Source: Phycisphaera mikurensis NBRC 102666
GTDB lineage: Bacteria > Planctomycetota > Phycisphaerae > Phycisphaerales > Phycisphaeraceae
DNA length: 32,000 bases
Direction of reading: 5' to 3'
Assembly: GCF_000284115.1 (NCBI RefSeq)
Contig: NC_017080.1
Span: forward strand, 3,540,001 to 3,572,000
Below the pieces are notes generated by a model. It saw only the letters and a program-made list of their open reading frames with translations, was not told the DNA's origin and made no database searches. This document shows positions 1,704 through 24,172 of the stretch, piece by piece (positions within the stretch are counted from its first letter, which is position 1; the number at the start of each line of letters is the position of its first letter). A program made the translations under genes and the position numbers.

Positions 1704-1748
1704 TCCGCTCCGCGCCCTCACGCACGCGCCGGCCGCGCGGCCGAAGCC

Positions 1749-3776
1749 TCAGCCGCCCCGCTCCGCCAGCAGCTGCGTGTCGTCTTCGTAGCAGTAGACC
1801 CAGCCCGCGCCGGGCTCCCCCGCGTCCACCGGCTCCACGATCGGGTGCTCGGCGGCCCGGGCGTGCGCCCGCGCGTGCCGGTTCGGGGACGCGTCGCAGC
1901 AGCCGACCGCCCCGCACGCGGCGCAGCGGCGGAGGTGGACCCACGGCTCACCGGCCGCCACGCAGGCCGGGCACACGAGCCCGGCCCGCGCGGCTCCGGG
2001 CAGCGGCGGGAGCCGCAGCATCTCCGCGTGCGTGCACGCGGCGGAGGCGCCCGGCCCCGCGTCGACGGGCTCGGCGGGCACGTGGTGCAGCCCCGCCACC
2101 CACGCCGCCAGCTCGCGGCGGAAGGCCGCGTCGTCTCCGCCGGGCACGAAGAGGCGCGGCGGCGTGAGGCGCGGGTCGGCCTCGATCGCGTGCCGCACCG
2201 CCTCGGCCGCCTCGGGCGTGTCGTCGGCGACGATGACGGCCGCCGCGTCGGCTGCGCCCGCGGCGAGCAGGGCCTCGGCGCGCGTGTTGCTCCCGCGGTG
2301 GACGACGAGGGCCCCGCCACCGGCGGGCCGGAGCTCGCGCTCCGCCTCCGCCTCGAGCGTCGACGCCCGCCCCGGGTCCAGCGTCACCACGCTCACGTCC
2401 AGCGGCGAGCTTCGCAGCAACCCCAGCAGCGACTCCGCCCGCTCGCCGTACCCCGCCAGCACCACCCGCGGCCGGTCGCCGCCGCCTCCGGAGCCGCGGA
2501 CCGCCGGCGTTTCCGCCGATCCGGGACCGCGGTCCGCGGATCCCGCTGCCCCCACGAGCTTCCGCGAGGCGGCCGAGAGCAGCGGCGTGGCCAGCATCGA
2601 GACCACCGTCGCCGCGATGAACAGGTTCACGCCGCGCTCCGCAGCGCCGCCGGGCGTCAGCCCCGCCGCCGCCCCGGTCGCCTGCAGCACGAAGGCGAAC
2701 TCGCCCACCTGGGCCGTGAGCAGCCCCGCCGCGCCCGCCACCGCCCAGCGGCCGCCCGCGAGCCGCACCCCCGCCGCCGTGACGAGCGCCTTGAGCGCCA
2801 CCAGCGCCAGCACGCAGCCGACCACGGCCAGCGGGTTCGCCCAGACGAAGCCCGGGTCCAGCCGCATGCCGACCGAGGCGAAGAACACCGCGGAGAACAG
2901 CACCTGCAGCGGCATCACCTCGCCGAAGGCGTGGTGGCTGAAGCGGCTCTCGCTGATGAGCAGCCCCGCGAGGAAGGCCCCCAGCGCGAGGCTCACGCCG
3001 GCCAGCGACGTGAGCCAGGCGAGCCCGAAGCACACCGCCACGAGCGTCAGCAGGAAGACCTCCGCCGAGCACGTGCGTGCCACCCGCTCGATGACCGCCG
3101 GCACGATCCGCCGGGCGAGCAGCAGCACCGCCGCGACGATCCCGCCCGCCTTCGCCAGCGCCCACAGGAGCGCCGGCACGCCCCCGGCCCCGCCGTCCGC
3201 CCCGCCCGCCGCCGAGTCGCCCGCCGAGGTCGCCGCTCCGAGCATCGGCACCACCAGCACCATCGCCACCACCGCGAGGTCCTGGAAGATCAGCACCCCC
3301 AGCGTCGCCTGCCCCTCGTCGCTGCCGGTCCGCCGCTCGCCCGCCAGCAGCTTGAGCACGATCGCCGTCGACGACAGCGACACGAGGCACCCCGTGAAGA
3401 CCGCCGCCCGCCAGCCGACGCCCGCAACCACCAGCACCGCCGCCACCGCGGCGACGGTGCCGATCACCTGCGCGGCCCCCGCGATGAAGATGAGCCGCGA
3501 GATCTTCGCCAGCTTCTCCAGCGAAAACTCGATGCCGATCGTGAACAGCAGCAGCACGACGCCCACCTCGGCAAGCTGCGCAACCATCGCGTCGTCCTCC
3601 ACCACGCCCAAGCCGAAAGGCCCGAGCAACACGCCCGCGAGCAGGAAGCCGAGGATCGGCGCGACGCCGACCTTCACGCACGCGAAGGCGATGGCGGCGC
3701 AGCCCAGCAGCAACGCCACCATCTCCGGCAGCCGCGGGAGGGCGTCGCCGGCGGCGAGGGTGGCTCGGAGCATCAT
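1749..3776 (-). CDS. CPA2/Kef-type monovalent cation:proton antiporter with a TrkA-N/RCK-like segment and a C-terminal UBP-type zinc-finger module
   Basis: ATG (revcomp of 3774-3776), 675 aa. The N-terminal ~400 aa form a multi-pass membrane domain of Kef/CPA2 appearance (ILGFLLAGVLLGPFGLG, LLLFTIGIEFS, many Gly/Ala/Leu helices). A soluble Rossmann-like part follows (RVVLAGYGERAESLLGLL...VVTLD). The last ~95 aa are a Cys/His-rich module (CPAC...WVHLRRCAACGAVGCCDASPNRHARAH...HP...WVYCYEDD). Confidence 0.85.
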   Translation of the reverse strand: MMLRATLAAGDALPRLPEMVALLLGCAAIAFACVKVGVAPILGFLLAGVLLGPFGLGVVEDDAMVAQLAEVGVVLLLFTIGIEFSLEKLAKISRLIFIAGAAQVIGTVAAVAAVLVVAGVGWRAAVFTGCLVSLSSTAIVLKLLAGERRTGSDEGQATLGVLIFQDLAVVAMVLVVPMLGAATSAGDSAAGGADGGAGGVPALLWALAKAGGIVAAVLLLARRIVPAVIERVARTCSAEVFLLTLVAVCFGLAWLTSLAGVSLALGAFLAGLLISESRFSHHAFGEVMPLQVLFSAVFFASVGMRLDPGFVWANPLAVVGCVLALVALKALVTAAGVRLAGGRWAVAGAAGLLTAQVGEFAFVLQATGAAAGLTPGGAAERGVNLFIAATVVSMLATPLLSAASRKLVGAAGSADRGPGSAETPAVRGSGGGGDRPRVVLAGYGERAESLLGLLRSSPLDVSVVTLDPGRASTLEAEAERELRPAGGGALVVHRGSNTRAEALLAAGAADAAAVIVADDTPEAAEAVRHAIEADPRLTPPRLFVPGGDDAAFRRELAAWVAGLHHVPAEPVDAGPGASAACTHAEMLRLPPLPGAARAGLVCPACVAAGEPWVHLRRCAACGAVGCCDASPNRHARAHARAAEHPIVEPVDAGEPGAGWVYCYEDDTQLLAERGG

Positions 3777-3949
3777 CGGAAGAAGCTAGCGCATCGTGCG
3801 CCGAACCCCCCGCGCCGCCTCCGGACCGATCGACCGCCGGCGGGCCACCGCAGAAACCCGAACCCGATGGGAACCCGCCGCCGCTCGCCCGCGTCTGAAG
3901 GTTGAACGCCCCGCCCCGCGGGCCTCCGCACCTCCGCCCGAGCCCCTCC

Positions 3950-5140
3950 ATGCCCCGCCTCCTCGCCGTCAACCTCCCGCTGCTGCTGGCCCTCGCCGCG
4001 ACACCCGCCCCGCTCGCCACCGCCGCGCCCGACCCGGCCCCCGGCGCGGTCCGTGTGCCCGCCGCCAAGGCGGCGGCGCCGGTCGTCGAGCTCGCGATCC
4101 TGCTGGACACGTCCAACTCGATGGACGGGCTGATCGACCAGGCCCGCGCCCAGCTGTGGGGCATCGTCAACCGGGTGGCGAGCAAGACGCGGGGCGGGCA
4201 AGCCCCGCGGCTGCGGGTGGCGCTTTACGAGTACGGGAACAGCTCGATCCCCGTGGAAGCGGGCTACGTCCGGCTCGTGCAGCCGCTGACCGGCGACCTG
4301 GACCTCTTCTCGCGGGCGCTCTTCGAGCTGACCACCAACGGCGGCGACGAGTACTGCGGCGAGGCGATCGGCCGCGCCGTCGAGGAGCTGGAGTGGTCGC
4401 CCGAGAGCGTGAGCGGCAGCGGGTTCAGAGCGATCTACATCGCGGGCAACGAGCCGTTCACGCAGGGCGAGCGCCCCTACGCCTCGGCGTGCGCGGCGGC
4501 CGTCGGCAAGGGCGTGCGGGTCAACACGATCCACTGCGGACCCGAGGCGGTGGGTGCCGAGAGCGGCTGGCGGGACGGCGCGGAGCGAGCGGAGGGCGAC
4601 TTCCTGAACATCAACCAGGACGCCGCGGTCGCGGTCGCGGCCACGCCGATGGACGCCCGGCTGGCGGATCTGAGCAGGGAGATCAACGGGACCTACGCCT
4701 TCTTCGGCGGGCAGCGCCGGGAGCTCGAAGAGAACCAGAAGGTGCAGGATCGCAACGCCTCGCGGCTCGGCCGCGCGATCGCCGCCGAACGCGCGGCGAC
4801 GAAGTCCGGCCCCGGGTACCGCAACCGGGCGGACCTGGTCGACGCCACGCTCGACGCTCCGGCGCCCGCCGCCGCCCTCGCCGCCATCCCCGCCGGGGAC
4901 CTGCCCGAGGAGATGCGGGCCATGACCGACGGCGAGAGGCTCGCTCACGTCGAGAAGCTTGCCGCCGAGCGGGCGGCCCTCCAGGCCGAGATCCAGGAGC
5001 TCAGCATCGAGCGTGACGCCTTCCTCGCGGACCTCGCCGCCGGGGCCGCGGACGGGCCCGAGGCCGAAGACACGTTCGGGTCGGCGATCCTGGCGTCGGT
5101 CGACCGGCAGATGGAAGCCGCGGGCTTCGAGAAGAAGTGA
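3950..5140 (+). CDS. Secreted von Willebrand factor type A (VWA) domain protein with an Ala/Glu-rich C-terminal tail
   Basis: ATG 3950 starts a signal-peptide-like MPRLLAVNLPLLLALAATPAPLATAAP, so I prefer it over the TTG at 3902 used by the ORF track. There is a MIDAS-type motif LAILLDTSNSMDG, followed by the VWA-like LRVALYEYGN...TNGGDEYCGEAI...IYIAGNEPF. Stop is TGA 5138-5140. Confidence 0.8.
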   Translation: MPRLLAVNLPLLLALAATPAPLATAAPDPAPGAVRVPAAKAAAPVVELAILLDTSNSMDGLIDQARAQLWGIVNRVASKTRGGQAPRLRVALYEYGNSSIPVEAGYVRLVQPLTGDLDLFSRALFELTTNGGDEYCGEAIGRAVEELEWSPESVSGSGFRAIYIAGNEPFTQGERPYASACAAAVGKGVRVNTIHCGPEAVGAESGWRDGAERAEGDFLNINQDAAVAVAATPMDARLADLSREINGTYAFFGGQRRELEENQKVQDRNASRLGRAIAAERAATKSGPGYRNRADLVDATLDAPAPAAALAAIPAGDLPEEMRAMTDGERLAHVEKLAAERAALQAEIQELSIERDAFLADLAAGAADGPEAEDTFGSAILASVDRQMEAAGFEKK

Positions 5141-5198
5141 AGCAGCGACGGTGCCGGGACCTCGCGGGCGCACCCGCCGGGCGAGTGCGGAGCGACAA

Positions 5199-5246
5199 CC
5201 CGCGGACCGCCGCCGCTCCCAGCGGTCTCCGCCGCCGGTCCGCGGG
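5199..5246. terminator. GC-rich stem-loop between convergent genes (candidate bidirectional terminator; no U-tract)
   Basis: CCCGCGGACCG (5199-5209) and CGGTCCGCGGG (5236-5246) are perfect 11-bp inverted repeats. An inner CCGCT/AGCGG pairing sits in the 26-nt loop. The element lies between the VWA stop (5140) and the acyltransferase stop (5315). No T/A run flanks it, so its function is uncertain. Confidence 0.3.
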
Positions 5247-5314
5247 AACGCCGGGTGCAGGAGCGGGCCCGGCGGCGGCCCCTCGATGCGGCCGCGCCAC
5301 GCCGCGGCTGCGGC

Positions 5315-6025
5315 TCAAGGTCGGGCGTTCGCGGGCACCTCCCACGCAGTCAGCATCTCGGCGTAAAGCTTCTCGAACGCCGAGCCGAGCTCCGCGGCGT
5401 CGCGCTCCCGCCCGACCCGCCGGGCCTCGCCGGGGACGTCGCCGGCGCCGTCGAAGAGCAGCGGCTCGCCGACCGCCAGGTAGAGCGGGCTCCTGCGCCA
5501 AGGCAGGAAGGCGGCCGGGGACTGCAGACCCTGGCAGCCCAGGACCGCGACGGGCAGGACCGGCACGCCGGCGCGGCGGGCCATCACGCAGACGCCCGCC
5601 TTGGGGGTGGCGCCCAGGAGGAGGCTCCCCTCCCCGCGGACGCAGCCGCCCTCGGGGAAGATGCCGACGGTCTCGCCGGCGGCGAGCAGGCGGTCGGCGG
5701 CGCGGAAGGTCGAGTGCGTCGCGGCGGAGCGGTGCACGCGCACGCAGAGGTGGCGGTGGAGCAGCCAGCGGGCCCAGCGGCGCCGGTAGAACTCGTCGCG
5801 CGAGACGAACCACACGCGGCGCCGCATCGCGGTGCCGAGGATCACCGGCTCGAGGTGCGCCAGGTGGGTCACGGCGAGCAGGTGGCCGGCGGGCGGCGCG
5901 GCGTCGCCGTCGAGGCGCTCGCGGTGCAGCCAGTGCAGGCGGACGAAGCGGCGGAACAGCGTGCCGACGAGCAGGCGGCTGAGCCGGTACACCCGGTCGC
6001 TCCGCTCGGGCGGCCCCGCCGTCAC
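5315..6025 (-). CDS. PlsC-family (lysophospholipid/1-acyl-glycerol-3-phosphate-type) acyltransferase
   Basis: GTG start (revcomp of 6023-6025) overlaps the upstream gene's TGA by 4 nt (GTGA). The translation has acyltransferase block I as VTHLAHLEP (H-x4-E instead of H-x4-D), block III GIFPEGG and the later VPVLPVAV. The first in-frame ATG lies after block I, so the GTG start is required. The 410-aa track ORF 5315..6547 is an over-extension. Confidence 0.75.
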   Translation of the reverse strand: MTAGPPERSDRVYRLSRLLVGTLFRRFVRLHWLHRERLDGDAAPPAGHLLAVTHLAHLEPVILGTAMRRRVWFVSRDEFYRRRWARWLLHRHLCVRVHRSAATHSTFRAADRLLAAGETVGIFPEGGCVRGEGSLLLGATPKAGVCVMARRAGVPVLPVAVLGCQGLQSPAAFLPWRRSPLYLAVGEPLLFDGAGDVPGEARRVGRERDAAELGSAFEKLYAEMLTAWEVPANARP

Positions 6026-6735
6026 GCCTCGCCGCCGGGCTTGCGGAACGCGAAGAGCCAGCTGTGAAACGGCGTGCGGCCCCACAGCGGGCGGGCCTCG
6101 ACGCTGAAGCCGGCGGCGGCGAAGGGCGCAGTGACGCCCTCGACGGTCGGGAAGTGCCGCGCGGGCTGGGTCATCCAGCCGGCGAGGCGGATCGTCGCCT
6201 CCTCGATCCGCGTCGCGGCGTAGCGCCACGAGCGGGCGCGGGGCGTGGCACGCAGGACGACCCAGCCGCCGGGGCGGACGGCGGCGGCGAGAGCGTTCAG
6301 CAGCGGCTCCTGATCCGCGGCGGGGAAGTAGTGCAGCACGTCGAGCATCACGACGTGGGCCCACGCTCCGGGCCCGAGCAGGCCCGGCTCGTCGCCGCGG
6401 CCGACGCGGAGCGTGGTGGCCGCGTCGCCGGCGGCGGCAAGCGCCTGCCGCCCGTCGCGGATCTTCGGCTCGTCGGGATCGACGCCCGTGACCTCGCCGA
6501 CCCAGCCGCACGCGCGCAGCCAGAACGCGAGCAGACCGAGGCCGCACCCCACGTCGAGCAGCGGGCCCGGCGTGACGGGCCCGGCGAGCAGCCGCTCCGC
6601 GACCGCGGCGTACGCCGGGTCGGTCCTGAGCTTGCCCGCCGCGTAGTGGCGGTGGTAGCGGCCGCCAAGCCCGCCGCGGAACCGCCGGGCGATCCGCTGG
6701 ATCGCGTCCGCTCCCGGGGGCGGCGTGCCGCTCAC
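6022..6735 (-). CDS. Class I SAM-dependent methyltransferase
   Basis: GTG start (revcomp of 6733-6735) overlaps the hisI TGA (6732-6734) as GTGA. SAM-binding motif I is LLDVGCGLGLLAFWL, followed by VTGVDPDE, a post-I acidic residue, VVMLDVLHYF and PGGWVVL. The N-terminal 240 aa of track ORF 6022..7455 are Arg-rich shadow sequence overlapping hisI. Confidence 0.8.
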   Translation of the reverse strand: MSGTPPPGADAIQRIARRFRGGLGGRYHRHYAAGKLRTDPAYAAVAERLLAGPVTPGPLLDVGCGLGLLAFWLRACGWVGEVTGVDPDEPKIRDGRQALAAAGDAATTLRVGRGDEPGLLGPGAWAHVVMLDVLHYFPAADQEPLLNALAAAVRPGGWVVLRATPRARSWRYAATRIEEATIRLAGWMTQPARHFPTVEGVTAPFAAAGFSVEARPLWGRTPFHSWLFAFRKPGGEA

Positions 6736-7205
6736 GCGCCCCCGTAGACCTTCTCGGGATCGAACACCCGCTGCTCGACGATCTTCAGCCCCTCGCCCTC
6801 GACCGCCCGGTAGAAGCAGCCCGGGAAGCCGACGTGGCACGACGCCGCGACGCCGCCGGCGCCGTCGGCCGTGGCGGCCCCGATCCGCACCCTCGCGAGC
6901 ACCACGTCCTGGTCGCAGTCGGTCCGCAGCTCCACCACCGCCTGGCTCATCCCGCTGCTCTCGCCTTTCCGCCAGAGCTTGGCCCGGCTCCGCGACCAGT
7001 AGTGGACGAAGCCGGTGTCGATGGTCGCCCGCAGCGACTCCGCGTTCATGAACGCGAACATCAGCACCTCGCCCGTGTCCGCGTGCTGGGTGACGCAGGG
7101 GATGAGGCCTTCCCGGTCGAAGCGCGGCGTGAACGCGTGCCCGAGCTCGAGGGCCTTCTTCTCGGCGGGCGGCTCGGGGAAGCTCTTTGGAGGAGGCGCG
7201 GGCAT
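6732..7205 (-). CDS. hisI: Phosphoribosyl-AMP cyclohydrolase (monofunctional HisI)
   Basis: ATG (revcomp of 7203-7205), 157 aa. HisI signature blocks are GLIPCVTQHADTGEVLMFAFMNAESL, YWSRSRAKLWRKGESSG, LRTDCDQDVVL and CHVGFPGCFYR. There is no HisE (pyrophosphohydrolase) extension. Confidence 0.9.
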   Translation of the reverse strand: MPAPPPKSFPEPPAEKKALELGHAFTPRFDREGLIPCVTQHADTGEVLMFAFMNAESLRATIDTGFVHYWSRSRAKLWRKGESSGMSQAVVELRTDCDQDVVLARVRIGAATADGAGGVAASCHVGFPGCFYRAVEGEGLKIVEQRVFDPEKVYGGA

Positions 7206-7340
7206 CGGGAGAAAGGTACCGGCAGGAAGTCGCGTGGCCGCCGCAGCGCCTCGCCCGAGGGGCTGCTCCTCGGGCTCCGCCGGAGGGAACCCCGCGTACG
7301 CCCGCTCCTGCGGTGGACCGCTGGATCGCGAAGCGATATC

Positions 7341-8057
7341 GCGGCCGGGCTGGCTGCGAGAGCTGAGCGGCGACGCCGCTCTGTCTGCCCTGTGCGCGAG
7401 GGAGCTGCATCGCGGCTCGGACAGCGTGGCGTCGCCACGCAGCTAGCGCGGCCAAGCTGGCTCCGAAAGCTGAGCGGCGACGCCGCTCTGTCTGCTTGTG
7501 CGCGAGGGAGCTGGATGGGGAGTCGGACAGCGTGGCGTCGCCACGCAGCTAGCGCGGCCAGGGGCTGGCTGCGAGAGCTGAGCGGCGACGCCGCTCTTTC
7601 TGCTTGTGCGCGAGGGAGCTGCATCGCGACCCGGACAGCGTGGCGTCGCCACGCAGCTACCGCGGCCAAGCTGGCGGCGAGAGCTGAGCGGCGACGCCGC
7701 TCTGTCTGCCTTGTGCGCGAAGGAGCCGGATCGCGACCCGGACAGCGTGGCGTCGCCACGCAGCTAGCGCGGCCAAGCTGGCTCCGAGAGCTGAGCGGCG
7801 ACGCCGCTCTGTCTGCTTGTGCGCGAAGGAGCTGCATCGCGACTCGGACAGCGTGGCGTCGCCACGCAGCTACCGCGGCCAAGCTGGCGGCGAGAGCTGA
7901 GCGGCGACGCCGCTCTGTCTGCTTGTGCGCGAGGGAGCTGCATCGCGGCTCGGACAGCGTGGCGTCGCCACGCAGCTAGCGCGGCCAGGCTGGCGGCGAG
8001 AGCTGAGCGGCGACGCCGCTCTGTCTGCTTGTGCGCGAAGGAGCTGGATCGGGGCCA
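7341..8057. repeat. Tandem array of ~6.7 copies of a 106-108 bp unit, each with two invariant 17-nt perfect palindromes
   Basis: Unit starts were read off the sequence at 7341, 7448, 7554, 7662, 7769, 7875 and 7981. The last copy diverges after ~8055. GAGCGGCGACGCCGCTC is present and identical in 7/7 copies. GCGTGGCGTCGCCACGC is identical in copies 1-6. The linkers carry substitutions and 1-2 bp indels. The array occupies the ppk-hisI intergenic region. Confidence 0.95.
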
Positions 8058-8137
8058 GACCGCGAGCCCGGAACCGGTGGCCACACCTCTCCCGGCGCGG
8101 CACGCAGATCGGGTCGTGTCCGGAGCTTCACCGCCGC

Positions 8138-10396
8138 TCACTCGTGCCGCGAGCGGGTGAACGCCATCAGACGCTCGTGCGTCCCCGGCGCGTCCTCCCC
8201 GGGCTCGGGTCGCCGCAGGGTGTAGTTGCCGTCGGCGTCCATGTCCCAGGCCAGGCGGCGGTCGGTGCGGAGGATGTCGAGCAGGTGGTCGATGCGCTTC
8301 CGCAACGCCGGGTCGTAGATCGGGGTGATGCACTCGACGCGGTTGTTCAGGTTGCGGTACATCCAGTCCGCGCTGCCGATGAAGGTCTCCGGCTCGCCCG
8401 CGTTGTGGAAGCGGAACACCCGGCTGTGCTCGAGGAATCGGCCGATGACGCTGCTGACCTCGATGTTCTCGGAGAGACCGGGCACGCCGGGGCGGATGCA
8501 GCAGAAGCCGCGCACGAAGAGCTCGACCTTCACGCCGACTCGGCTCGCGGCGTAGAGCCGGCGGGCGATGCCGTGGTCCTCGAGTTGATTCATCTTCGCG
8601 ACGATCGACGGGCGGTCGGGGTCGGCGGGGTCGCTGCCGCGCTCGACCCAGCCCGCGGCGTGATCGATCTCCCGCTGGATGAGCTGGCCGAAGCGGCGGC
8701 GCATGTTGACCGGAGCGATGAGCAGGTGGTCGAAATCTTCCTTCAGGCTGCGGCCGGTGAGGAAGTGGAACAGCTCGACCAGGTCGCGGGTGATCCGCTT
8801 GTCGGCGGTGAAGAGGCCCAGATCGGTGTAGAGGTTGGCGGTCTTGGAGTGGTAGTTGCCGGTGCCGATGTGGGCGTAGACCTTCATCCCGGCGTCCTCC
8901 TCGCGGACGACGAGCGCAGTCTTGGTGTGGGTCTTGAGGCCGACGAGGCCGTAGACGACGTGCACGCCGGCCTTCTCCAGCCGTCGCGCCAGCTGCACGT
9001 TGCGCTCTTCGTCGAAGCGGGCCTTCAGCTCGACCAGGCACACGACCTGCTTGCCGGCCTCGGCGGCGGCGATGAGCGTGGGGATGAAGGGCGAGTCGGT
9101 GCCGGTGCGGTAGAGCGTGAGCTTGATCGCGACGACCTTGGGGTCGCGGGCGGCCTGCTTGATGAAGGCCTCGACGCTGTGCTCGAAGCTCTCGTAGGGG
9201 TGGTGCACGAGCAGGTCCCCCTGGCTGACCGTGGCGAAGACGTCGGACCCGCCCGCGGTGGACTCGCCGGCCACCAGGCGCGGCGGGGTCATCGGCTTCC
9301 ACTTGGGGTACTTGAGGTCGGGCCGGTCGACGGCGGCGTGCACCGCGAAGAGGTCGGTGTAGTCGAGCTCGGCGGTCATCCGGTAGATGTCCTCCTCCCG
9401 CAAGCCCAGCTCGGCGAGCAGGTAGCGGACCATCGGGTGGTCCGCCTCGGCGTCGACCTCCAGCCGCACGCAGCTGGCGAAACGCCGGTCACGCAGCTCC
9501 TGGTTCACCAGCTCGAGCAGGTCTTCGGCGTCCTCCTCGTCGCGCTCCAGGTCGGCGTTGCGGGTGATGCGGAAGGGCTCGCAATGGACGACCTCCATGC
9601 CCTCGAACAGCCGGCCGAGGTTCTGGCGGATGATGTCGATGAGGGCGACGAAGCGGTAGACGTCGCGGCCGTCCTCGTCCCGCTCGCCCGGCCGGTGCAA
9701 CGCGACCCACTGCGGCATCATCGCCGGCACCTTGACGCGGGCGAACTCCAGCGCGGGGCCCTCGGGGTCGTCGGGGTCGTCGAGCACGGCGGCGGCGTCG
9801 GAGTTGGCGCCGATGCCCGACTTCGCCGGCGGGCGGAGCATGACGCCCAGCGAGGTGGACAGGTTGGAGAGGAACGGGAAGGGGTGCCCGGGGTCGACGG
9901 CGAGCGGGGTGAGCAGCGGGAAGAGCTGCTCCTCGAAGTAGGCGTTGGCCGTCTGCTGGTCGGCGTCGGAGAGCTTCGCCCACGGGAGCAGGTGGATGCC
10001 CTCGGCGGAGAGCTTCGGCTTGAGGTCCTCGGCGAAGCACTCCGCCTGCTTGGCGAGCATGGGCAGCACCTGCTCGCGGATGCCGTGCAGCTGCTCGGTG
10101 GCGGTCCTCCCGTCGGGGCTGCGCTGCGTGAGCCCCGCCTTGATCTGCCGCTTCAGCCCTCCCACCCGCTTCTGGAAGTACTCATCGAGGTTGGAGTTGA
10201 AGATCGCGAGGAAGGCGATCCGCTCCAGCAGCGGCGTCCGCTCGTCGCAGGCCATGTGCAGCACGCGCTTGTTGAAGATGAGCCACTGCGTCTCGCGGTT
10301 GAGGAAGTGGTCCTGCTCGTCGGGCGCAGCGATGGCGGCGTCGGGGTCGGGGGCGGGACGCGGGGTCCGTTTGCGGCGGTGGGAGGTCTTGGCCAT
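8138..10396 (-). CDS. ppk: Polyphosphate kinase 1
   Basis: ATG (revcomp of 10394-10396), TGA at 8138-8140, 752 aa. It is PPK1-like throughout: FLNRETQWLIFNKRVL, ERIAFLAIFNSNLDEYF, LLVHHPYESF, the autophosphorylation-region TGTDSPFI, two PLD-like HKD-type blocks (LKTHTKTALVVR, GTGNYH) and SADWMYRNL. Sequence upstream of Met in track ORF 8138..11254 is Pro/Arg-rich shadow. Confidence 0.95.
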   Translation of the reverse strand: MAKTSHRRKRTPRPAPDPDAAIAAPDEQDHFLNRETQWLIFNKRVLHMACDERTPLLERIAFLAIFNSNLDEYFQKRVGGLKRQIKAGLTQRSPDGRTATEQLHGIREQVLPMLAKQAECFAEDLKPKLSAEGIHLLPWAKLSDADQQTANAYFEEQLFPLLTPLAVDPGHPFPFLSNLSTSLGVMLRPPAKSGIGANSDAAAVLDDPDDPEGPALEFARVKVPAMMPQWVALHRPGERDEDGRDVYRFVALIDIIRQNLGRLFEGMEVVHCEPFRITRNADLERDEEDAEDLLELVNQELRDRRFASCVRLEVDAEADHPMVRYLLAELGLREEDIYRMTAELDYTDLFAVHAAVDRPDLKYPKWKPMTPPRLVAGESTAGGSDVFATVSQGDLLVHHPYESFEHSVEAFIKQAARDPKVVAIKLTLYRTGTDSPFIPTLIAAAEAGKQVVCLVELKARFDEERNVQLARRLEKAGVHVVYGLVGLKTHTKTALVVREEDAGMKVYAHIGTGNYHSKTANLYTDLGLFTADKRITRDLVELFHFLTGRSLKEDFDHLLIAPVNMRRRFGQLIQREIDHAAGWVERGSDPADPDRPSIVAKMNQLEDHGIARRLYAASRVGVKVELFVRGFCCIRPGVPGLSENIEVSSVIGRFLEHSRVFRFHNAGEPETFIGSADWMYRNLNNRVECITPIYDPALRKRIDHLLDILRTDRRLAWDMDADGNYTLRRPEPGEDAPGTHERLMAFTRSRHE

Positions 10397-10646
10397 GGGT
10401 CGGGAGCGGAGCGGCCGGGCGAGGGTAAAGCGATCCGAGGAGCGATCGGTCCCGCTCGCTCGAGCCTGGGGCGAGCCGACGCGGCGGGAGGTGGCCCGGG
10501 CAGGACGGGCGTGGCCGCTCCTCCACGGAGCCGCCAGCCAGGGCCCACCGCCCATCGGCCGAGAAGACCCAGCCCGCCGCGGCGTTGTCATGCCCCTTTC
10601 GTTCCTTCGTTTCTGCTTCGCCTGCGCCACGCGGCGGGTGCGTTCT

Positions 10647-12224
10647 TCACCTCGACTCCGTGAGCGCGTAGCAGACGTCGCCGTGGAGGAGGTACAGGCG
10701 CAGCGCGGGCCCGAGCTTCTTGGCCAGGGAGAGGCCCAGGTCGGGCCGGTCGGTGACGAGGTGGGGCACGGGATCGGCGGCGTCGACGCGGCGGTGGGGC
10801 TGGGCGGCCGACAGCCAGTCCTGGTGCTCGCGGGCCCATTCGGCGGCGTCGCGGAGGGCGAGCATCGCCTCGCGGGGGTGGGGGTGCTCGGCGGAGTGGG
10901 TGTGGCGTGCGAGCAGGTGCAGGCGGCCGTTGGCGTCGAGCGCGAGCTGGACGAGCGGCTGGCCGGGGCAGCCGGGCTGGATCGCCTCGAGACGGGGCCC
11001 GGAGGGCCGGGCGGTGGAGAGGCGTTCGAGCAGGCCCTCCAGCGGGGCCGCGGGGTGGGCGGGCGCTTCGTCCTCGGCGTCGCCGGCCGCGGCGTGCCGC
11101 CGGTGGAGGTCGAGCGAGCGGACGGCGGCGGCGCCGCGGATCGCCGGGCTTTCCGGGTCGGAAGGGGCTTGGGTCCGCGGCTCCGCGGGGTCGGGCCCGG
11201 AGCCGGCGGACGCGGCCGGCGGCCCGGGCTCCGGATCCGCCGCCTGCTCGGCATCGGGCAGGCTGCGGAGCCAGCCCAGCAGCGAGGCCCAGGGGTCGGG
11301 GCCGTCGCCGCGGCGGACGAAGCCCAGCGGCGTGCGGGCCACGGGGTTCATCCGCGGCAGGCTGCCCAGCGGCTCGGGCGGGCTGTCGACGTCGTCGACG
11401 AGGGCGCGGGCCAGCGCCCCGGCGGCATCCCGGGCGGCGGGCGGCTCCGAGCCCATCACCATGAGCCCGAAGCCCGCGGAAGCGATCGCGGGAGCGACGC
11501 CGATGAGCCGGCGGAGCATCGCGGCCGCGCCCTCGATGGCGACCGGGTCCGCGCCCGAGAGCAGCGACCAGTCGGCGACGCCGGCGAACCGCGCGGCGGC
11601 CTCGGGGCCGTCGACGCCGGCGTTCACGAGCACGGCCGCCGGCGCGCGGGTGGCGTGGGTCAGCAGCGTCGCGACCCGCTCCCGCAGCCCGGCCTCGGGA
11701 GAGAGGCGCTCCAGCACCGCGGCGGCGTCCCCGCCGCCGGGGCCGATCCACTCCAGCTCGAAGCCTTCGCCGACGCCGCTCTCGGGAGCCGTGCCCAGCG
11801 GGTCCTCCTCGTCTTCCTCCTGGATCGGGTGCAGCAGCAGCACCGGCCCGTCGCGGTGGGCGATCAGCTGGGCGTACTGCGGCAGCCAAGCGGAGGCCAA
11901 GCCCGGCAGGTTGCCGAGCAGGACGGCCTCCAGGGGCGGCGATGCGGCGGGCCGAGGGGCGGGGTCGGCGGGCACCTCGCGGCCGGCGAGCTTGAGGCGG
12001 TGGGCCGGGCCGGCCGCGCCCGGAGGCGGCGCAGCGGGACCCGGGCGGGCGGGAGGCGGGTCGCCCGGGGGCGGAGCCGCGCCGGCCCCGGCGGCGGGCT
12101 TGGGGCGCAGCCGGACGGGTGCCGGGCCGCCGAGGCCCGGCGGCGCATCGCCAGGGGGGCTCAAGAAGAGCGTGGCGAGATCGTCGAGGGTCTGGCTGTC
12201 GTCCATGACAGGGTCTTTCTCCAT
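10647..12224 (-). CDS. Hypothetical 525-aa protein with Pro/Ala-rich disordered segments and a possible degenerate (Walker-A-less) ParA/MinD-like core
   Basis: ATG (revcomp of 12222-12224). It is the only frame in this interval with protein-like composition (acidic N-terminus MEKDPVMDDSQTLDDLATLFL, balanced D/E/L/V). It sits 130 bp downstream of the ParA-like gene on the same strand. I recognise no family with certainty. Confidence 0.6.
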   Translation of the reverse strand: MEKDPVMDDSQTLDDLATLFLSPPGDAPPGLGGPAPVRLRPKPAAGAGAAPPPGDPPPARPGPAAPPPGAAGPAHRLKLAGREVPADPAPRPAASPPLEAVLLGNLPGLASAWLPQYAQLIAHRDGPVLLLHPIQEEDEEDPLGTAPESGVGEGFELEWIGPGGGDAAAVLERLSPEAGLRERVATLLTHATRAPAAVLVNAGVDGPEAAARFAGVADWSLLSGADPVAIEGAAAMLRRLIGVAPAIASAGFGLMVMGSEPPAARDAAGALARALVDDVDSPPEPLGSLPRMNPVARTPLGFVRRGDGPDPWASLLGWLRSLPDAEQAADPEPGPPAASAGSGPDPAEPRTQAPSDPESPAIRGAAAVRSLDLHRRHAAAGDAEDEAPAHPAAPLEGLLERLSTARPSGPRLEAIQPGCPGQPLVQLALDANGRLHLLARHTHSAEHPHPREAMLALRDAAEWAREHQDWLSAAQPHRRVDAADPVPHLVTDRPDLGLSLAKKLGPALRLYLLHGDVCYALTESR

Positions 12225-12354
12225 CCGGGGGTCGCCGGTGGTCCGGCGGTCGCCGCCTCTCCCCGGTGGGGGTGGGGGCGTGGGCTCGATGAGCCGCCGG
12301 CTCGCGGAGCCGGGCGTTGTACGCGGCGTTGCCGCGTGGAGGTCGCAGCGAGCC

Positions 12355-13755
12355 TCAGGCGCCGGCGGGCTCCGGCGCGGCGGGGACGCGAACCGGGCTC
12401 GCGGGCACCCTCGCCGGGTCCGCGACCACCGGCTCCGCGACCACCTCCGCCACGCTGTTCGCCTCGCCGAGCGGGTTCACCTCGGTCAGGCGGTTGAAGG
12501 GATCGGCCGCCCACTGCCCGTCGATGACGAGGCGGTAGGCGTGGCGGCCGGCGGGCAGCTTCACGAGCGCCTGCCAGACGCCGAGCTCGGCGTTGCGGGT
12601 CATCGCGGTCGCTTCGGGGTCCCAGCCGTTCCAGGAGCCGGCGATCGTGATCCGGGCGCCGGCGTCGCCGGGCTGGACGAAGAGCGTCCCGTTGCGGGTG
12701 CAGCGGCATCCGCAGAGCCGCTCGATCGCGGCGGGCAGGACCGCCGGGGTGGGTGCGGCCGGCGGGGTGTCCCGCGCGGCGAGCGACTCCGCGTTGCGGC
12801 GGGAGAGGTCGCGGGTGCGGGCCACGAGCTCGGCGGCGCGGGACAGGCGGGCCGGTCCCGCGGCCCCGGCCGGCGTCGGGTCCGGCGCGGTGTCGCCGGG
12901 GACGGGCGCCGGCGCCTCGCCCGCCGGGTTCGCGTCCCGCGTCTCCGCCGCGAGCGGGGCCAGCATCTCCGCGGGCTCGGGCGGGTGGGCGACCAGCCAG
13001 TCGGCGAGCTTCACGAAGTCCGCCGCGGCCGAGCCGTCGGGATCGTACTCGCCGATCGCCCGACCGAAGCCGGCGGCCTCACGCAGCTTCTCGTCCTCGT
13101 GGATGCAAAGCGGCAGCACCTGCTCGCCGAAGTGCCGCTTCATCTGCCCGAGGATTTCGCGGTCGATGTTCCGGTCGGCCCGGTGCAGCGTGGGCAGCAC
13201 GCTGAAGCGGACGCGGTGGCCGGCCCGGCGGGCGAGCATGTCGATCGTCCGGGCCTGCTTGATGGCGCCCTGGAGCGCGAAGTAGCCGGTCTCCACCGGG
13301 ATGAGCACCTCCTGGCAGGCCCGCAGCGCGTTGAAGGTGAGCAGGCCGATCGACGGCGGGCAGTCGATGATGCAGTGGGCGTAGTCGCCGCCCTCCGCCC
13401 GCCCGAGCACCGCCGCCAGCCGCCGGTCCCGGTCCGAGGCGTTGGAGAGGCGCTGCTCGATGCCGGCGAGCGCGAGGCTGGAGGGCAGCAGGTCGAGGTT
13501 CCGGCGGACCCGCCAGAGGCAGTCCTCGAAGGCGATCGGCTCGCCCTCGGCGTTGCGTCCGCCGCCGAGCAGGTCGGCCACGCCGTGCTCGATCCCGTCC
13601 TCGGGCACCGAGAGGCCCAGGGCGCAGTGGCTCTGGGGGTCCATGTCCACGAGCAGCGTCTTGCGGCCGCGGCGGGCCAGCTCCGAGGACAGGTGGATGG
13701 CGGTGGTGGTTTTCCCGCACCCGCCCTTCTGGTTGATGATCGCCGTGGTTCGCAA
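12355..13755 (-). CDS. ParA/Soj-family deviant Walker-A ATPase fused to a C-terminal CBM48/AMPK-beta-like (E-set) glycan-binding module
   Basis: TTG start (revcomp of 13753-13755) gives MRTTAIINQKGGCGKTTTAIHL, a deviant Walker A with the signature Lys. Further ParA-like blocks are LLVDMDPQ, IIDCPPSIGLLTFNAL and VLIPVETGYFALQG. A ~100-aa Pro/Ala linker follows. Residues ~353-438 (nt ~12442-12699) read TLFVQPGDAGARITIAGSWNGWDP...GVWQALVKLPAGRHAYRLVIDGQWAADPFN, the classical CBM48/AMPK1_CBM pattern. Confidence 0.9.
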   Translation of the reverse strand: MRTTAIINQKGGCGKTTTAIHLSSELARRGRKTLLVDMDPQSHCALGLSVPEDGIEHGVADLLGGGRNAEGEPIAFEDCLWRVRRNLDLLPSSLALAGIEQRLSNASDRDRRLAAVLGRAEGGDYAHCIIDCPPSIGLLTFNALRACQEVLIPVETGYFALQGAIKQARTIDMLARRAGHRVRFSVLPTLHRADRNIDREILGQMKRHFGEQVLPLCIHEDEKLREAAGFGRAIGEYDPDGSAAADFVKLADWLVAHPPEPAEMLAPLAAETRDANPAGEAPAPVPGDTAPDPTPAGAAGPARLSRAAELVARTRDLSRRNAESLAARDTPPAAPTPAVLPAAIERLCGCRCTRNGTLFVQPGDAGARITIAGSWNGWDPEATAMTRNAELGVWQALVKLPAGRHAYRLVIDGQWAADPFNRLTEVNPLGEANSVAEVVAEPVVADPARVPASPVRVPAAPEPAGA

Positions 13756-14005
13756 GAGTCGTCCTCAGTGAGCGGGAGGGGAGGCGGAGCACCGGCCGGG
13801 TTCGACCGCCGATCCCGTTATCGGAGCCGGGTCGGGGACCGCGTGAGGATTGGCGCGGTCGGGCCGCCCCGTCCGTCTGATCGCCGTTCGCACGGCGGGC
13901 GATCCGGTGAGCGCCCGAGCCGCAACGCCCCCGCCGGGGGACGCCGCCCCGGGGCCACGAGGGACGCGGAGCGGCCGGCGGAGCTCCGCCCGCCATAGTG
14001 GCCCC

Positions 14006-15076
14006 GTGCCCGTGGAAGACCGCTACGTCCGCCTCGTCGAGGGCCGCTCCGCCGGCGTGCTCGCCTCCGCCGCCCGCGGGCTGCTGCGGGCGGCGACGCC
14101 GGCCTGGCGGCTCGGGCTCGCGATCGATCAGCAAAGAAAACGGCGCGGCCGCCGGCCGCTCGGCCGGCCGACCGCCTCCATCGGGAACCTCTCCGTGGGC
14201 GGAACCGGCAAGACGCCCGCCGTCGCCTGGGCCGTCCGCCGGCTGCTCGACGCCGGTCACCGCCCCGCCGTGCTCACCCGCGGCCACGGCGGCGACGCGC
14301 AGCGGCCGGCGGACGAGGTGCTCGAGCTGCGCGGGATGCTCCGCGACGCCGCCCCGGTCATCGCCGATCCCGACCGCCACGCCGCCGCCGCCGCCGCTCT
14401 CGCCGCGTCGCCGGGCCTCACCTGCTTCGTGCTCGACGACGGCTTCCAGCGGCTCGACGTCGCACGCGATCTCGACCTCGTGCTCGTCGACGCCAGCCGC
14501 ACGCTCGCCTCGGCCCGCTTGCTGCCCGGCGGCCTGCTCCGGGAGCCGCCCGCCGCGTTGACCCGCGCCGACGCGGTGCTGCTGACCCGCGTCGACCGCG
14601 CCGGCCCCGCCGCCACCGGCGAAACGGCCGCCTGGGTCACCCGCTGGCACGGCCGCCCGCCGCTCGCATCCTTCGCCCACCGCTGGTCGGGCGTCGACGC
14701 GTACCCGCCCGCCGGCGCGGCCCCGGCGATCGCCGGCCGGCGGCTCTACGCCGCCGCGGGCATCGGCCACCCCCGCGCCTTCGCCGAGCAGCTCGCCGCC
14801 GCCGGCGCCGAGGTCGTCGGCGCGGCCCGGCTCGCCGACCACCACCGGCCCACCGCCGGCGGGCTCGCCCGCCTCCACGCCGATGCCCGGGCCGCGGGCG
14901 CCGACGCCGTCGCCACCACGGAAAAGGACCGCGTGAAGTGGGCGATGCTGGATCCGGGACCCGATGCACTCCCGGTGCTGGTCCCCCGCCTCCGCTTCGA
15001 GCCCGTCGCCGGCGAGGCCGCCCTGCTCGCACTCCTCCGCGAGCGGCTCCCGCGGCCGGTCGATCGCCCGGCGTGA
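14006..15076 (+). CDS. lpxK: Tetraacyldisaccharide 4'-kinase (lipid A biosynthesis)
   Basis: P-loop block IGNLSVGGTGKTPAVAW, then VLTRGHGG, VLDDGFQ, LDLVLVD, LPGGLLREP, AGIGHPRAF and TTEKDRVKW, colinear with E. coli LpxK. The start is uncertain. GTG 14006 or 14012 gives an N-terminus of typical length. The track's TTG 13850 adds ~50 Arg/Pro-rich residues and is disfavoured. Confidence 0.85.
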   Translation: MPVEDRYVRLVEGRSAGVLASAARGLLRAATPAWRLGLAIDQQRKRRGRRPLGRPTASIGNLSVGGTGKTPAVAWAVRRLLDAGHRPAVLTRGHGGDAQRPADEVLELRGMLRDAAPVIADPDRHAAAAAALAASPGLTCFVLDDGFQRLDVARDLDLVLVDASRTLASARLLPGGLLREPPAALTRADAVLLTRVDRAGPAATGETAAWVTRWHGRPPLASFAHRWSGVDAYPPAGAAPAIAGRRLYAAAGIGHPRAFAEQLAAAGAEVVGAARLADHHRPTAGGLARLHADARAAGADAVATTEKDRVKWAMLDPGPDALPVLVPRLRFEPVAGEAALLALLRERLPRPVDRPA

Positions 15077-20571: not shown

Positions 20572-20680
20572 AGCCGGCAATGACCTACTTTCCCGCGGTT
20601 GCAGTATCATCGGCGTGCTGGGCTTAACGGCCGTGTTCGGAATGGGAACGGGTGGGACCCCAGCACTGTTGTCACCGGCA
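20572..20680 (-). rRNA. rrf: 5S ribosomal RNA
   Basis: The reverse complement reads TGCCGGTGACAACAGTGCTGGGGTCCCACCCGTTCCCATTCCGAACACGGCCGTTAAGCCCAGCACGCCGATGATACTGCAACCGCGGGAAAGTAGGTCATTGCCGGC. It contains the universal CCGAAC...GTTAAGC core, the GGGAA.GTAGGTC element and terminal helix I pairing. The ends are +/- a few nt. Confidence 0.9.
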
Positions 20681-20826: not shown

Positions 20827-23619
<2,793 letters not shown>

Positions 23620-24162: not shown

Positions 24163-24172
24163 CGGCCCCGCC

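What the first reader, a model, noticed from the sequence alone, without database searches (positions are those of the whole stretch)
7341..13755. Co-directional block parA-CBM48 / partner / ppk1 / palindrome array as a candidate storage-granule positioning locus
Four elements lie head to tail on the minus strand: the ParA-like ATPase with a glycan-binding module (13755-12355), its putative partner (12224-10647), polyphosphate kinase 1 (10396-8138) and the palindrome array (8057-7341). The block is bounded upstream by the divergent lpxK. PPK1 makes polyphosphate granules, and CBM48 modules bind glycogen-type polymers. ParA-type motors use the nucleoid or specific iterated DNA sites as a track or anchor. 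One coherent but speculative reading is a system that spaces or partitions storage granules, with the array as a cis-acting anchor or regulatory site. The linkage could equally be coincidental. The gaps of 130 bp and 250 bp between the genes allow independent promoters.
Basis: inference. Interest (0 to 1): 0.65.

Follow-up and report, generated by a model that had tools for sequence, protein, structure and literature searches.

The report
Glycogen-binding ParA ATPase with pseudo-ATPase partner
Two of the four linked elements, a ParA-type positioning ATPase fused to a glycogen-binding module and its unannotated neighbour, form a gene pair conserved across the bacterial class Phycisphaerae, whereas the polyphosphate kinase gene and the palindrome array are recent neighbours that do not belong to it.

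Summary
All four elements are at the stated coordinates. They are not one system.

In 83 related loci, the ParA-CBM48 gene is followed by the "partner" gene in 71 of 79 informative loci. Two more loci have the partner 6-8 kb away. ppk1 is adjacent only here and in the closest relative. The 106-bp x 7 palindrome array occurs nowhere else, although two assemblies of this genome carry it identically.

- **ParA-CBM48:** it has an intact deviant Walker A ATPase. Its best solved-structure matches are chromosomal ParA/Soj proteins (36% identity to the top hit). It also has a conserved helix and an AMPK-beta-type CBM that keeps all glycan-binding positions.
- **Partner:** this family has no Pfam or NCBIfam match and at least 855 clusters. 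It has a conserved N-terminal peptide, a MinD/FlhG-like fold whose P-loop is replaced by invariant GNLPG (so a pseudo-ATPase), and an unmatched C-terminal domain.
- **ParB:** in Phycisphaerae, parB sits next to parS with no adjacent parA, yet keeps its ParA-activating peptide.

Best reading: this is an undescribed two-gene ParA positioning module linked to glycogen. It may also be the chromosome's own ParA. The polyphosphate and array links are incidental.

The parts
12355..13755 (-). ParA-CBM48 gene (466 aa, TTG start): a Soj-like deviant Walker A ATPase with a C-terminal extension
   Evidence: Pfam AAA_31, CbiA and AMPK1_CBM. More than 120 full-length homologues all have the same architecture. 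At least 577 genome loci were found.
12982..13755 (-). ATPase domain (residues 1-258): invariant KGGCGKTT, VDMDPQxHCALGL, IIDCPPS and K223 (the position of the DNA-binding Arg189 of Soj)
   Evidence: Alignment A2. PDB matches: ParA 8RAY E 2e-38, Soj 6IUB and 1WCV about 1e-34, against MinD 1e-12 and McdA 1e-8. 36% identity to 8RAY_B.
12781..12849 (-). Conserved helix in the linker (SRAAELVxRxxxLSxR; S305-R320 invariant or nearly invariant) between two variable Pro/Ala-rich stretches
   Evidence: Alignment A2.
12433..12663 (-). AMPK-beta / CBM48-type carbohydrate-binding module (residues 365-441) with W378, R408, W415 and N433 conserved
   Evidence: Pfam AMPK1_CBM 43.2 bits. Aligned to AMPK beta1 CBM 1Z0N/1Z0M, E 1e-8. 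Invariant columns in A2.
10647..12224 (-). Partner gene (probable start 12206, 519 aa), the conserved downstream neighbour of ParA-CBM48
   Evidence: Homologues lie on the same contigs as ParA-CBM48. Synteny in 73 of 79 loci. 855 family representatives.
12042..12206 (-). Partner N-terminal conserved peptides (MDDxxTLDDLAxLFLT, then GPxPxRLxPK) within a disordered region; the proposed ParA-contact region
   Evidence: Alignments A1 and A5. pLDDT below 50 around the motifs. The function is inferred.
11217..11945 (-). Partner middle domain (residues ~88-330): a MinD/ParA-like fold with the P-loop replaced by invariant GNLPG(L/M)A, so a pseudo-ATPase
   Evidence: AF2 model with pLDDT about 90 in this domain. 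Foldseek hits FlhG 4RZ2 E 9.5e-5, FleN and MinD. Invariant L100 and P101, with no Lys or Thr. No sequence homology to ParA by hhalign.
10650..11039 (-). Partner C-terminal alpha/beta domain (residues ~390-519) with conserved His residues; the fold has no significant solved match
   Evidence: AF2 pLDDT 85.6. Best Foldseek E 0.02; weak PD-(D/E)xK-like hits, EndoMS prob 0.94.
8138..10396 (-). ppk1 (752 aa), an ordinary polyphosphate kinase 1; a lineage-specific neighbour, not part of the conserved module
   Evidence: Four PPK1 Pfam domains. Adjacent to the module only here and in L001.
7340..8051 (.). Tandem array: 6 full units and 1 partial unit of 106-108 bp. Each unit is two inverted ~36-nt arms carrying 17-nt palindromes (GAGCGGCG-A-CGCCGCTC and GCGTGGCG-T-CGCCACGC). 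It lies between ppk1 and hisI.
   Evidence: The RNA fold of two units has z = -5.35. No Rfam family matches. Identical in a second assembly.
13850..15076 (+). lpxK, divergent from ParA-CBM48; a conserved upstream neighbour (with maf and hldE) in 35 related loci
   Evidence: Pfam LpxK E 1.9e-58. Synteny.

Best explanation
The functional unit is a two-gene module, ParA-CBM48 plus the partner, conserved across the class Phycisphaerae. It is not the four-element block. Shown: the ATPase has every catalytic motif of a deviant Walker A ParA and is most similar to chromosomal ParA/Soj. A Lys occupies the position of the non-specific DNA-binding Arg of Soj. The C-terminal module is an AMPK-beta-type CBM that keeps the residues which contact glucan in AMPK beta1. 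The partner has conserved N-terminal peptides in a disordered region, a MinD/ParA-like fold without a P-loop, and a further conserved domain. Inferred mechanism: ATP-bound ParA dimers sit on the nucleoid. The CBM, on a long flexible linker, holds alpha-glucan (glycogen) granules, or reports their presence. The partner contacts ParA through its N-terminal peptides and/or by pairing its pseudo-ATPase domain with a ParA monomer, and so controls ATP hydrolysis and release. The outcome would be nucleoid-based spacing and inheritance of glycogen granules, or coupling of a ParA-driven process to carbon stores. ppk1 is an ordinary PPK1 that became a neighbour only in the Phycisphaera mikurensis-like lineage. 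The array is a lineage-specific, hairpin-forming tandem repeat in the ppk1-hisI spacer with REPIN/BIME-like architecture and no detectable link to the module.
For: Domain content. Class-wide distribution: more than 120 full-length homologues all with the CBM, and at least 577 genome loci, the best 80 almost all labelled Phycisphaerae or unclassified Planctomycetota (three carry Planctomycetia-order labels). Partner immediately downstream in 71 loci and nearby in 2 more, out of 79 informative. Partner family of 855 clusters with the same three-module layout. Pseudo-ATPase fold. ppk1 adjacent in only 2 of 84 loci. Array absent elsewhere. No paper describing such a fusion was found in the searchable library.
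Against: Nothing here shows glycogen binding, nucleoid binding, or an interaction between the two proteins. No glycogen-metabolism gene is a conserved neighbour. In known ParA systems the partner, not ParA, carries the cargo-binding function, so a CBM on the ATPase is atypical and could be regulatory. The near-universal presence in the class and the Soj-like sequence fit a housekeeping role at least as well as granule positioning. In Poriferisphaera the partner is separated from ParA-CBM48 and stays with dnaJ-clpB.
Confidence: 0.45

Rival explanations
1. ParA-CBM48 is the chromosome-partitioning ParA (Soj orthologue) of Phycisphaerae. It works with the unlinked ParB-parS system. The CBM, the conserved helix and the pseudo-ATPase partner are lineage-specific regulatory additions, for example tying segregation or division to carbon status. 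This overlaps with the best explanation rather than excluding it.
For: The ATPase domain is far closer to chromosomal ParA/Soj than to MinD, McdA, ParF or ParA2. In three complete or near-complete Phycisphaerae chromosomes, parB has no adjacent parA, yet it keeps the N-terminal RLGRGLSSLM peptide. From established knowledge, this is the ParA-activating motif of chromosomal ParB. parS-like TGTTCCACGTGGAACA sites sit at parB. In two species parB lies only 4 kb from ParA-CBM48. The gene appears to be single-copy and class-wide.
Against: 36% identity to a chromosomal ParA is at the low end for orthologues. No parB or parS is in this window. A second, canonical ParA elsewhere in these genomes could not be excluded with the tools available. 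A dedicated non-ParB partner is unexpected for Soj.
Confidence: 0.3
2. The pair is a MinD/MipZ/PomZ-like spatial regulator of division, or of another non-glycogen cargo, in these FtsZ-less bacteria that divide by binary fission. The CBM-like beta-sandwich would serve as a protein-interaction or sensing domain rather than a granule tether.
For: The pair is class-wide and sits in a housekeeping context (maf-lpxK-hldE, dnaJ-clpB, aroB, rsfS, clpX). The partner fold is closest to FlhG/FleN/MinD.
Against: All glucan-contact positions of the AMPK-beta CBM are invariant across the family. That is hard to explain without carbohydrate binding. No division genes are linked.
Confidence: 0.15
3. One reading: ParA-CBM48, partner, ppk1 and the array form one storage-granule (polyphosphate plus glycogen) positioning locus, with the array as a cis-acting anchor.
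For: The elements are co-directional and adjacent in this genome. ppk1 adjacency is kept in one close relative. The array's tandem units with 17-bp palindromes resemble plasmid centromeres such as sopC (own knowledge).
Against: ppk1 is absent from the other 81 distinct related loci. That close relative has no array. No comparable intergenic array lies near the module in any locus. The unit is not found elsewhere.
Confidence: 0.04
4. The array is a protein-binding site array, with 13 palindromes sharing the core GGCG-W-CGCC, for some dimeric DNA-binding protein. Alternatively it is a transcribed hairpin array acting on ppk1/hisI mRNA. In either case it is unrelated to the ParA module.
For: There are perfect 17-bp palindromes at regular 47/59-bp spacing. 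Predicted hairpin stability is strong (z -5.35). The array lies between co-directional genes. It was not found dispersed in about 41 kb of the genome, which argues against a dense REP family.
Against: No cognate binding protein was identified. No Rfam family matches. There is no conservation in relatives.
Confidence: 0.3

Closest known systems
Chromosomal ParA/Soj of ParABS systems (e.g. Thermus Soj 1WCV, Helicobacter Soj 6IUB, ParA 8RAY)
   Same: Deviant Walker A with the signature lysine, Walker A' and B aspartates, and a basic residue at the Soj Arg189 position. These are the best sequence matches among solved structures.
   Different: It carries a ~210-residue C-terminal extension (conserved helix plus CBM48). 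It is not next to parB or parS. It is paired with a non-ParB partner. Its Walker A reads KGGCGKTT.
Cargo-positioning ParA/partner pairs such as McdA-McdB (carboxysomes)
   Same: A two-gene ParA-plus-adaptor layout. The partner has a disordered N-terminal region with conserved short peptides and evolves fast.
   Different: Here the cargo-binding module (CBM) sits on the ATPase itself. The partner contains a pseudo-ATPase domain. There is no sequence similarity to McdB, and McdA is a distant match (E 1e-8).
AMPK beta-subunit CBM / CBM48 glycogen-binding modules (1Z0M, 1Z0N; SEX4)
   Same: Pfam AMPK1_CBM scores above its threshold. W100, K126, W133 and N150 equivalents are conserved as W378, R408, W415 and N433.
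   Different: It is fused to a bacterial ParA ATPase rather than to a kinase scaffold or a glucan-active enzyme. Binding was not tested.
MinD-like ATPases FlhG/FleN
   Same: These are the best structural matches of the partner's middle domain (Foldseek E 1e-4 to 1e-3, prob 1.0, TM to target about 0.46).
   Different: The partner lacks the Walker A Lys/Thr (invariant GNLPG instead). It has no detectable sequence homology and carries extra N- and C-terminal modules.
REP/BIME and REPIN extragenic palindromes; plasmid centromere arrays such as sopC
   Same: ~36-nt imperfect palindromes in alternating orientation, clustered in tandem in an intergenic spacer.
   Different: No dispersed copies were seen in about 41 kb of the genome or in any relative. 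No RAYT transposase is nearby. The array is not adjacent to the par-like genes and is not conserved with them.

Membership tests
ParA/MinD (deviant Walker A) ATPase superfamily | Deviant Walker A xKGGxxGK[ST] with the signature lysine | tested here: met
   NQKGGCGKTT is invariant in 24 of 24 family members. Pfam AAA_31 136 bits and CbiA 60.8 bits are above their cut-offs.
ParA/MinD (deviant Walker A) ATPase superfamily | Walker A' and Walker B aspartates | tested here: met
   D37/D39 (VDMDPQ) and D131 (IIDCPP) are invariant and align to Soj/ParA structures.
ParA/MinD (deviant Walker A) ATPase superfamily | ATP-dependent dimerisation and partner-stimulated ATPase activity | not testable with these tools
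   Requires biochemistry.
Chromosomal ParABS partition system | ParA most similar to Soj-type chromosomal ParA | tested here: met
   Best PDB matches are ParA 8RAY and Soj (116-136 bits), against 51 bits or less for MinD, McdA and ParF. 36% identity.
Chromosomal ParABS partition system | parA adjacent to parB, with parS sites nearby | tested here: not met
   No ParB domain in the window. No parS-like site in the window, or in related loci unless parB is present. parB is an orphan in L204-L206.
Chromosomal ParABS partition system | It is the only Soj-like ParA in the genome, i.e. the cognate of ParB | not testable with these tools
   Whole genomes could not be enumerated. ParB keeps its ParA-activating N-terminal motif, which implies that some cognate ParA exists.
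CBM48 / AMPK-beta glycogen-binding module | Profile match above the curated threshold | tested here: met
   AMPK1_CBM 43.2 bits against 26.8. CBM_48 itself scores 19.8 bits against 22.4, below its cut-off. PDB AMPK beta1/beta2 CBM E 1e-8.
CBM48 / AMPK-beta glycogen-binding module | Glucan-contact residues (AMPK beta1 W100, K126, W133, N150; residue list from own knowledge of the beta1-cyclodextrin structure) | tested here: met
   These align to W378, R408, W415 and N433, all invariant in 24 family members.
CBM48 / AMPK-beta glycogen-binding module | Binding to glycogen or alpha-glucan | not testable with these tools
   Requires a binding assay.
McdAB-type cargo-positioning system | Partner homologous to McdB, and ParA of the McdA type | tested here: not met
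   The partner has no Pfam or NCBIfam hit. McdA is only a distant match (E 1e-8).
MinD/FlhG-type ATPase (for the partner) | SIMIBI/MinD-like fold | tested here: met
   Foldseek top hits are FlhG, FleN and MinD, E 9.5e-5 to 3e-3, prob 1.0, on a model with pLDDT about 90 in that domain.
MinD/FlhG-type ATPase (for the partner) | Functional Walker A P-loop | tested here: not met
   The equivalent segment is the invariant GNLPG(L/M)A, without Lys or Thr, in 40 diverse members. No sequence-profile similarity to ParA.
Polyphosphate kinase 1 | The four PPK1 domains (N, middle, C1, C2) | tested here: met
   All four match with E 1e-37 to 1e-70.
REP/BIME/REPIN extragenic palindromes | ~35-nt imperfect palindromes in alternating orientation in intergenic clusters | tested here: met
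REP/BIME/REPIN extragenic palindromes | Many dispersed copies across the genome, often with a RAYT transposase | tested here: inconclusive
   No other copy in the 32-kb window or in 9.3 kb of extra flank.
Plasmid-type centromere array (sopC/parC-like) belonging to the par genes | Array co-conserved with, and adjacent to, the ParA/partner genes | tested here: not met
   The array is separated from them by ppk1. It is absent in L001 and in all 83 related loci.

The most novel reading that the evidence does not exclude
Phycisphaerae, which divide without FtsZ, have rebuilt their chromosomal ParA into a three-part machine. A Soj-type ATPase has captured an AMPK-beta-like glycogen-binding module. 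It is controlled by a pseudo-MinD/ParA partner and serves the orphan ParB-parS system. Chromosome segregation, and perhaps division-site choice, would then be physically coupled to glycogen granules, either by partitioning the granules on the nucleoid or by sensing carbon reserves in the way AMPK does in eukaryotes.
Probability: 0.2. Interest if true: 0.8.

Novelty: new variant of a known kind. Interest (0 to 1): 0.55.

Why it matters
ParA/MinD ATPases are known to position chromosomes, plasmids, carboxysomes, chemoreceptor arrays and flagella. The 2025 review of bacterial organelle positioning read here (PMC13052382) never mentions glycogen, and names the DNA-binding protein AlgP, not a ParA, for polyphosphate granules. 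A ParA with a built-in glycogen-binding module, conserved across a whole class, gives a direct and testable handle on whether bacteria actively organise glycogen. The partner would add a large unannotated family (at least 855 clusters at 50% identity) with a pseudo-ATPase domain, a new type of ParA regulator. Phycisphaerae lack FtsZ and their parB has no adjacent parA, so the pair may also bear on how these bacteria segregate DNA and divide. The result also warns against reading function from single-genome adjacency: ppk1 and the palindrome array looked coherent, but they are recent neighbours.

Tried and rejected
- **Metagenome scan for the array:** a scan with the 17-nt core palindrome returned only single chance hits in high-GC contigs and no arrays.
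- **Other array searches:** there was no match in plasmids. Rfam gave nothing at gathering thresholds, and at permissive thresholds gave only sub-threshold generic hairpin (miRNA precursor) hits. An nhmmer profile of the unit found no copy in any related locus or in the extended flank.
- **Partner as a diverged duplicate of ParA:** hhalign found no sequence similarity (probability 0.5%). Only the fold resembles ParA/MinD.
- **Partner C-terminal domain:** Foldseek gave no significant match. The weak PD-(D/E)xK-like hits are not backed by a conserved D...(D/E)xK motif, so no nuclease call is made.
- **Failed look-ups:** two encoding-contig look-ups failed because stop-to-stop ORFs were used instead of the true starts. 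They succeeded after the starts were corrected.
- **Literature:** searches for ParA plus glycogen, CBM48, Planctomycetes or polyphosphate found no description of this fusion.
- **Promoter and terminator scan:** it was uninformative in 74% GC DNA.
- **Unresolved:** whether a second, canonical ParA exists in these genomes. All genome-wide scans were capped.
Full report
**Setting.** The window has about 74% GC. The ParA-CBM48 protein is on record from a 3,803,225-bp contig, and all of its relatives are from Phycisphaerae or Planctomycetota. The window also holds a 23S-5S rRNA pair with no adjacent 16S. A second public assembly (GCA_014207395.1) matches base for base over the 11,003 bases where it overlaps the window (positions 701-11703), array included.

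**Observation.** All four elements are real and on the minus strand.
- **ParA-CBM48 (12355-13755):** a 466-aa protein with ParA-type Pfam domains (AAA_31 E 1.5e-39, CbiA). It also has AMPK1_CBM at residues 365-441, at 43.2 bits against a cut-off of 26.8.
- **Partner (10647-12224):** a 525-aa ORF with coding-type GC3 and no Pfam or NCBIfam hit. The database gene model starts at 12206 (519 aa).
- **ppk1 (8138-10396):** a PPK1 with all four domains.
- **Array (7340-8051):** a tandem array of period 106, 6.7 copies, 92% matches.
- **Flanks and gaps:** lpxK is divergent at 13850-15076. The array lies in the 932-bp spacer between the ppk1 stop and the hisI start at 7205. The stated gaps of about 130 and 250 bp are correct.

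**Synteny test.** I aligned 24 ParA-CBM48 proteins (A2) and scanned one genome per GTDB species. More than 600 stretches matched the family-specific peptides [IL]NQKGGCG and DPQ[SG]HCALG, and 577 were confirmed. The best 80 loci were fetched with 10-kb flanks. Most are labelled Phycisphaerae (Phycisphaerales, Tepidisphaera, Sedimentisphaerales) or unclassified Planctomycetota. Three carry Planctomycetia-order labels (L040, L072, L082).

Six-frame ORFs were searched with a partner HMM and with the proteins of the window and its neighbours. After one duplicate and three contig-truncated loci were set aside, 79 loci were informative.
- **Partner:** present in 73 of 79. It lies immediately downstream on the same strand in 71. 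In the two Poriferisphaera genomes it is 6-8 kb away, inverted together with dnaJ-clpB.
- **ppk1:** next to the module only in the window and in L001, the closest relative at 72% identity.
- **Other recurrent neighbours:** all are housekeeping genes. They are maf-lpxK-hldE upstream (35 loci), dnaJ-clpB downstream (about 15), and aroB, rsfS and clpX in another subclade.
- **Storage-polymer genes:** no glycogen or polyphosphate gene is a conserved neighbour.

**The array.** Each unit of 106-108 bp has two ~36-nt arms in inverted orientation, about 78-81% complementary, separated alternately by 1-3 nt and 33 nt. Each arm has its own 17-nt palindrome, GAGCGGCG-A-CGCCGCTC or GCGTGGCG-T-CGCCACGC.
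- **Not coding:** unit lengths of 106, 107 and 108 bp rule out a coding repeat.
- **Folding:** two units fold far better than shuffled controls (z = -5.35).
- **No known RNA family:** Rfam has no family for it. Permissive hits are generic long hairpins.
- **No other copies:** the unit occurs nowhere else in the window. It is also absent from 9.3 kb of extra flank from the second assembly, from L001, from all 83 related loci and from plasmids.
- **No equivalents in relatives:** no comparable intergenic array lies near the module in any relative.

The architecture resembles BIME or REPIN clusters. The defining dispersed-copy feature could not be shown. The array is a real, lineage-specific repeat and is not part of a conserved system.

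**ParA-CBM48.** Across 24 diverse members the following are invariant:
- the deviant Walker A NQKGGCGKTT;
- VDMDPQxHCALGL;
- the Walker B motif IIDCPPS;
- K223, which aligns with the Arg in the "NVRLSE" segment of chromosomal ParA. From established knowledge, this is the non-specific DNA-binding Arg189 of B. subtilis Soj.

Among solved structures, the ATPase domain matches chromosomal ParA/Soj far better than other family members. ParA 8RAY scores E 2e-38, and Helicobacter and Thermus Soj about 1e-34. MinD scores 1e-12, McdA 1e-8, and ParF and ParA2 about 1e-5. Identity to 8RAY_B is 36%.

After a variable linker comes an invariant helix (SRAAELVxRxxxL), then a second variable linker, then the CBM. 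The CBM aligns to the AMPK beta1 CBM (1Z0N/1Z0M) at E 1e-8. The residues I know to contact cyclodextrin there (W100, K126, W133, N150) correspond to W378, R408, W415 and N433. All four are invariant in the family. This pattern argues for real alpha-glucan binding.

**The partner.** Word-based search found only 14 relatives. An exhaustive profile search with the middle domain found 855 cluster representatives at E up to 1e-3, and 371 at E up to 1e-10. Typical length is 450-750 aa, with the domain at the same relative position.

Alignments of 14 and of 40 members show three conserved parts:
- **N-terminal peptides** MDDxxTLDDLAxLFLT and GPxPxRLxPK, within a disordered region;
- **a middle domain;**
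- **a C-terminal domain** with several nearly invariant His residues.

The AlphaFold model (pLDDT 73.5 overall, about 90 in the domains) shows that the middle domain has a MinD/ParA-type fold. Foldseek top hits are FlhG 4RZ2 (E 9.5e-5), FleN and MinD. The P-loop position reads GNLPG(L/M)A, without Lys or Thr, and L100 and P101 are invariant. I therefore call it a pseudo-ATPase. Profile-profile comparison finds no sequence homology to ParA-CBM48.

The C-terminal domain, modelled alone at pLDDT 85.6, has no significant solved match. There are weak hits to PD-(D/E)xK-fold proteins, such as EndoMS at prob 0.94 but E 0.08. I do not rely on these.

**Relation to ParB.** In L002 and L049 a full-length parB lies 4 kb from ParA-CBM48, with no parA next to it. 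In three complete or near-complete Phycisphaerae chromosomes, parB is likewise an orphan.

These ParB proteins keep the N-terminal RPSRLGRGLSSLM motif, the region known to activate ParA/Soj. Palindromes of the form TGTTCCACGTGGAACA, two mismatches from consensus parS, occur only at parB. A cognate ParA is therefore expected, and ParA-CBM48 is the obvious candidate. I could not list all ParA genes of a genome, so this remains open.

**Mechanism.** I rank the explanations as follows.
- **Nucleoid-based ParA module tied to glycogen (0.45).** The ATPase itself carries the granule-binding domain, and the partner controls hydrolysis through its N-terminal peptides or by pseudo-dimerisation.
- **The chromosomal Soj of the class, with these parts as add-ons (0.30).** This overlaps with the first explanation.
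- **A division or other-cargo regulator in which the CBM has a non-glycan role (0.15).**
- **The four-element model (0.04).**

Shown here: domain content, residue conservation, fold, synteny. Inferred: DNA binding, glycan binding, the interaction between the two proteins, and the cellular outcome.

**Novelty.** Searches of the open-access literature found no description of a ParA-CBM48 fusion or of a ParA system for glycogen. A 2025 review of bacterial organelle positioning never mentions glycogen. For polyphosphate granules it names the DNA-binding protein AlgP, not a ParA-type system. I class the pair as a new variant of a known kind, the ParA/MinD positioning systems. The ppk1 gene is ordinary, and the array is unexplained but unlinked.

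Noticed in passing
window 20572-23610 (-), 24172-24260 (+): The 23S and 5S rRNA genes have no 16S gene upstream of the 23S. The next feature is tRNA-Ser(TGA) on the other strand, so this is a split rRNA operon. GC falls to about 55% here.
   Followed up: partly
L002 11549-17458; L003 14910-21353; L009 12915-19932: The partner gene is often followed by dnaJ-clpB (about 15 loci). In the two Poriferisphaera genomes an inversion separated the partner from ParA-CBM48 but kept partner-dnaJ-clpB together. This hints at co-transcription with chaperone genes.
   Followed up: partly
L204 5871, L205 6153, L206 5712/5899, L002 5823, L049 4834/5076: parS-like palindromes (TGTTCCACGTGGAACA) lie in or just upstream of orphan parB genes. 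In L204-L206, a small histidine-kinase gene (HisKA/HATPase_c) lies divergently upstream of parB each time.
   Followed up: partly
window 10650-11039 (-), partner residues ~390-519: The partner's C-terminal domain has four nearly invariant His residues (H430, H461, H482, H505) and a conserved Cys (ARCP motif). This could be a metal-binding site. The fold has no significant PDB match.
   Followed up: partly
window 1749-3776 (-): A Na+/H+ exchanger with a TrkA_N domain and a C-terminal zf-UBP zinc finger (E 2.7e-10), an unusual fusion for a bacterial transporter.
   Followed up: no
window 13725-13701 (-) and family-wide: The Walker A of this ParA family has Cys where most ParA proteins have Val (KGGCGKTT). 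A second invariant Cys lies in DPQxHCALG, and the two peptides are diagnostic enough to retrieve the family from 185,579 genomes. A possible redox-sensitive pair.
   Followed up: no
window 8138-11254 (-) and many others: Very long spurious ORFs are produced by the 74% GC content. One example is the ppk1 frame, which stays open 858 nt upstream of the real start and overlaps the partner gene. Antisense shadow ORFs of ParA-CBM48 were recovered as a 'conserved' cluster in 80 loci.
   Followed up: yes
L001 8132-10222 (-): In the closest relative, the database gene calls miss lpxK upstream of ParA-CBM48 and list small unannotated genes instead. A six-frame search finds LpxK there at E 3e-119.
   Followed up: partly
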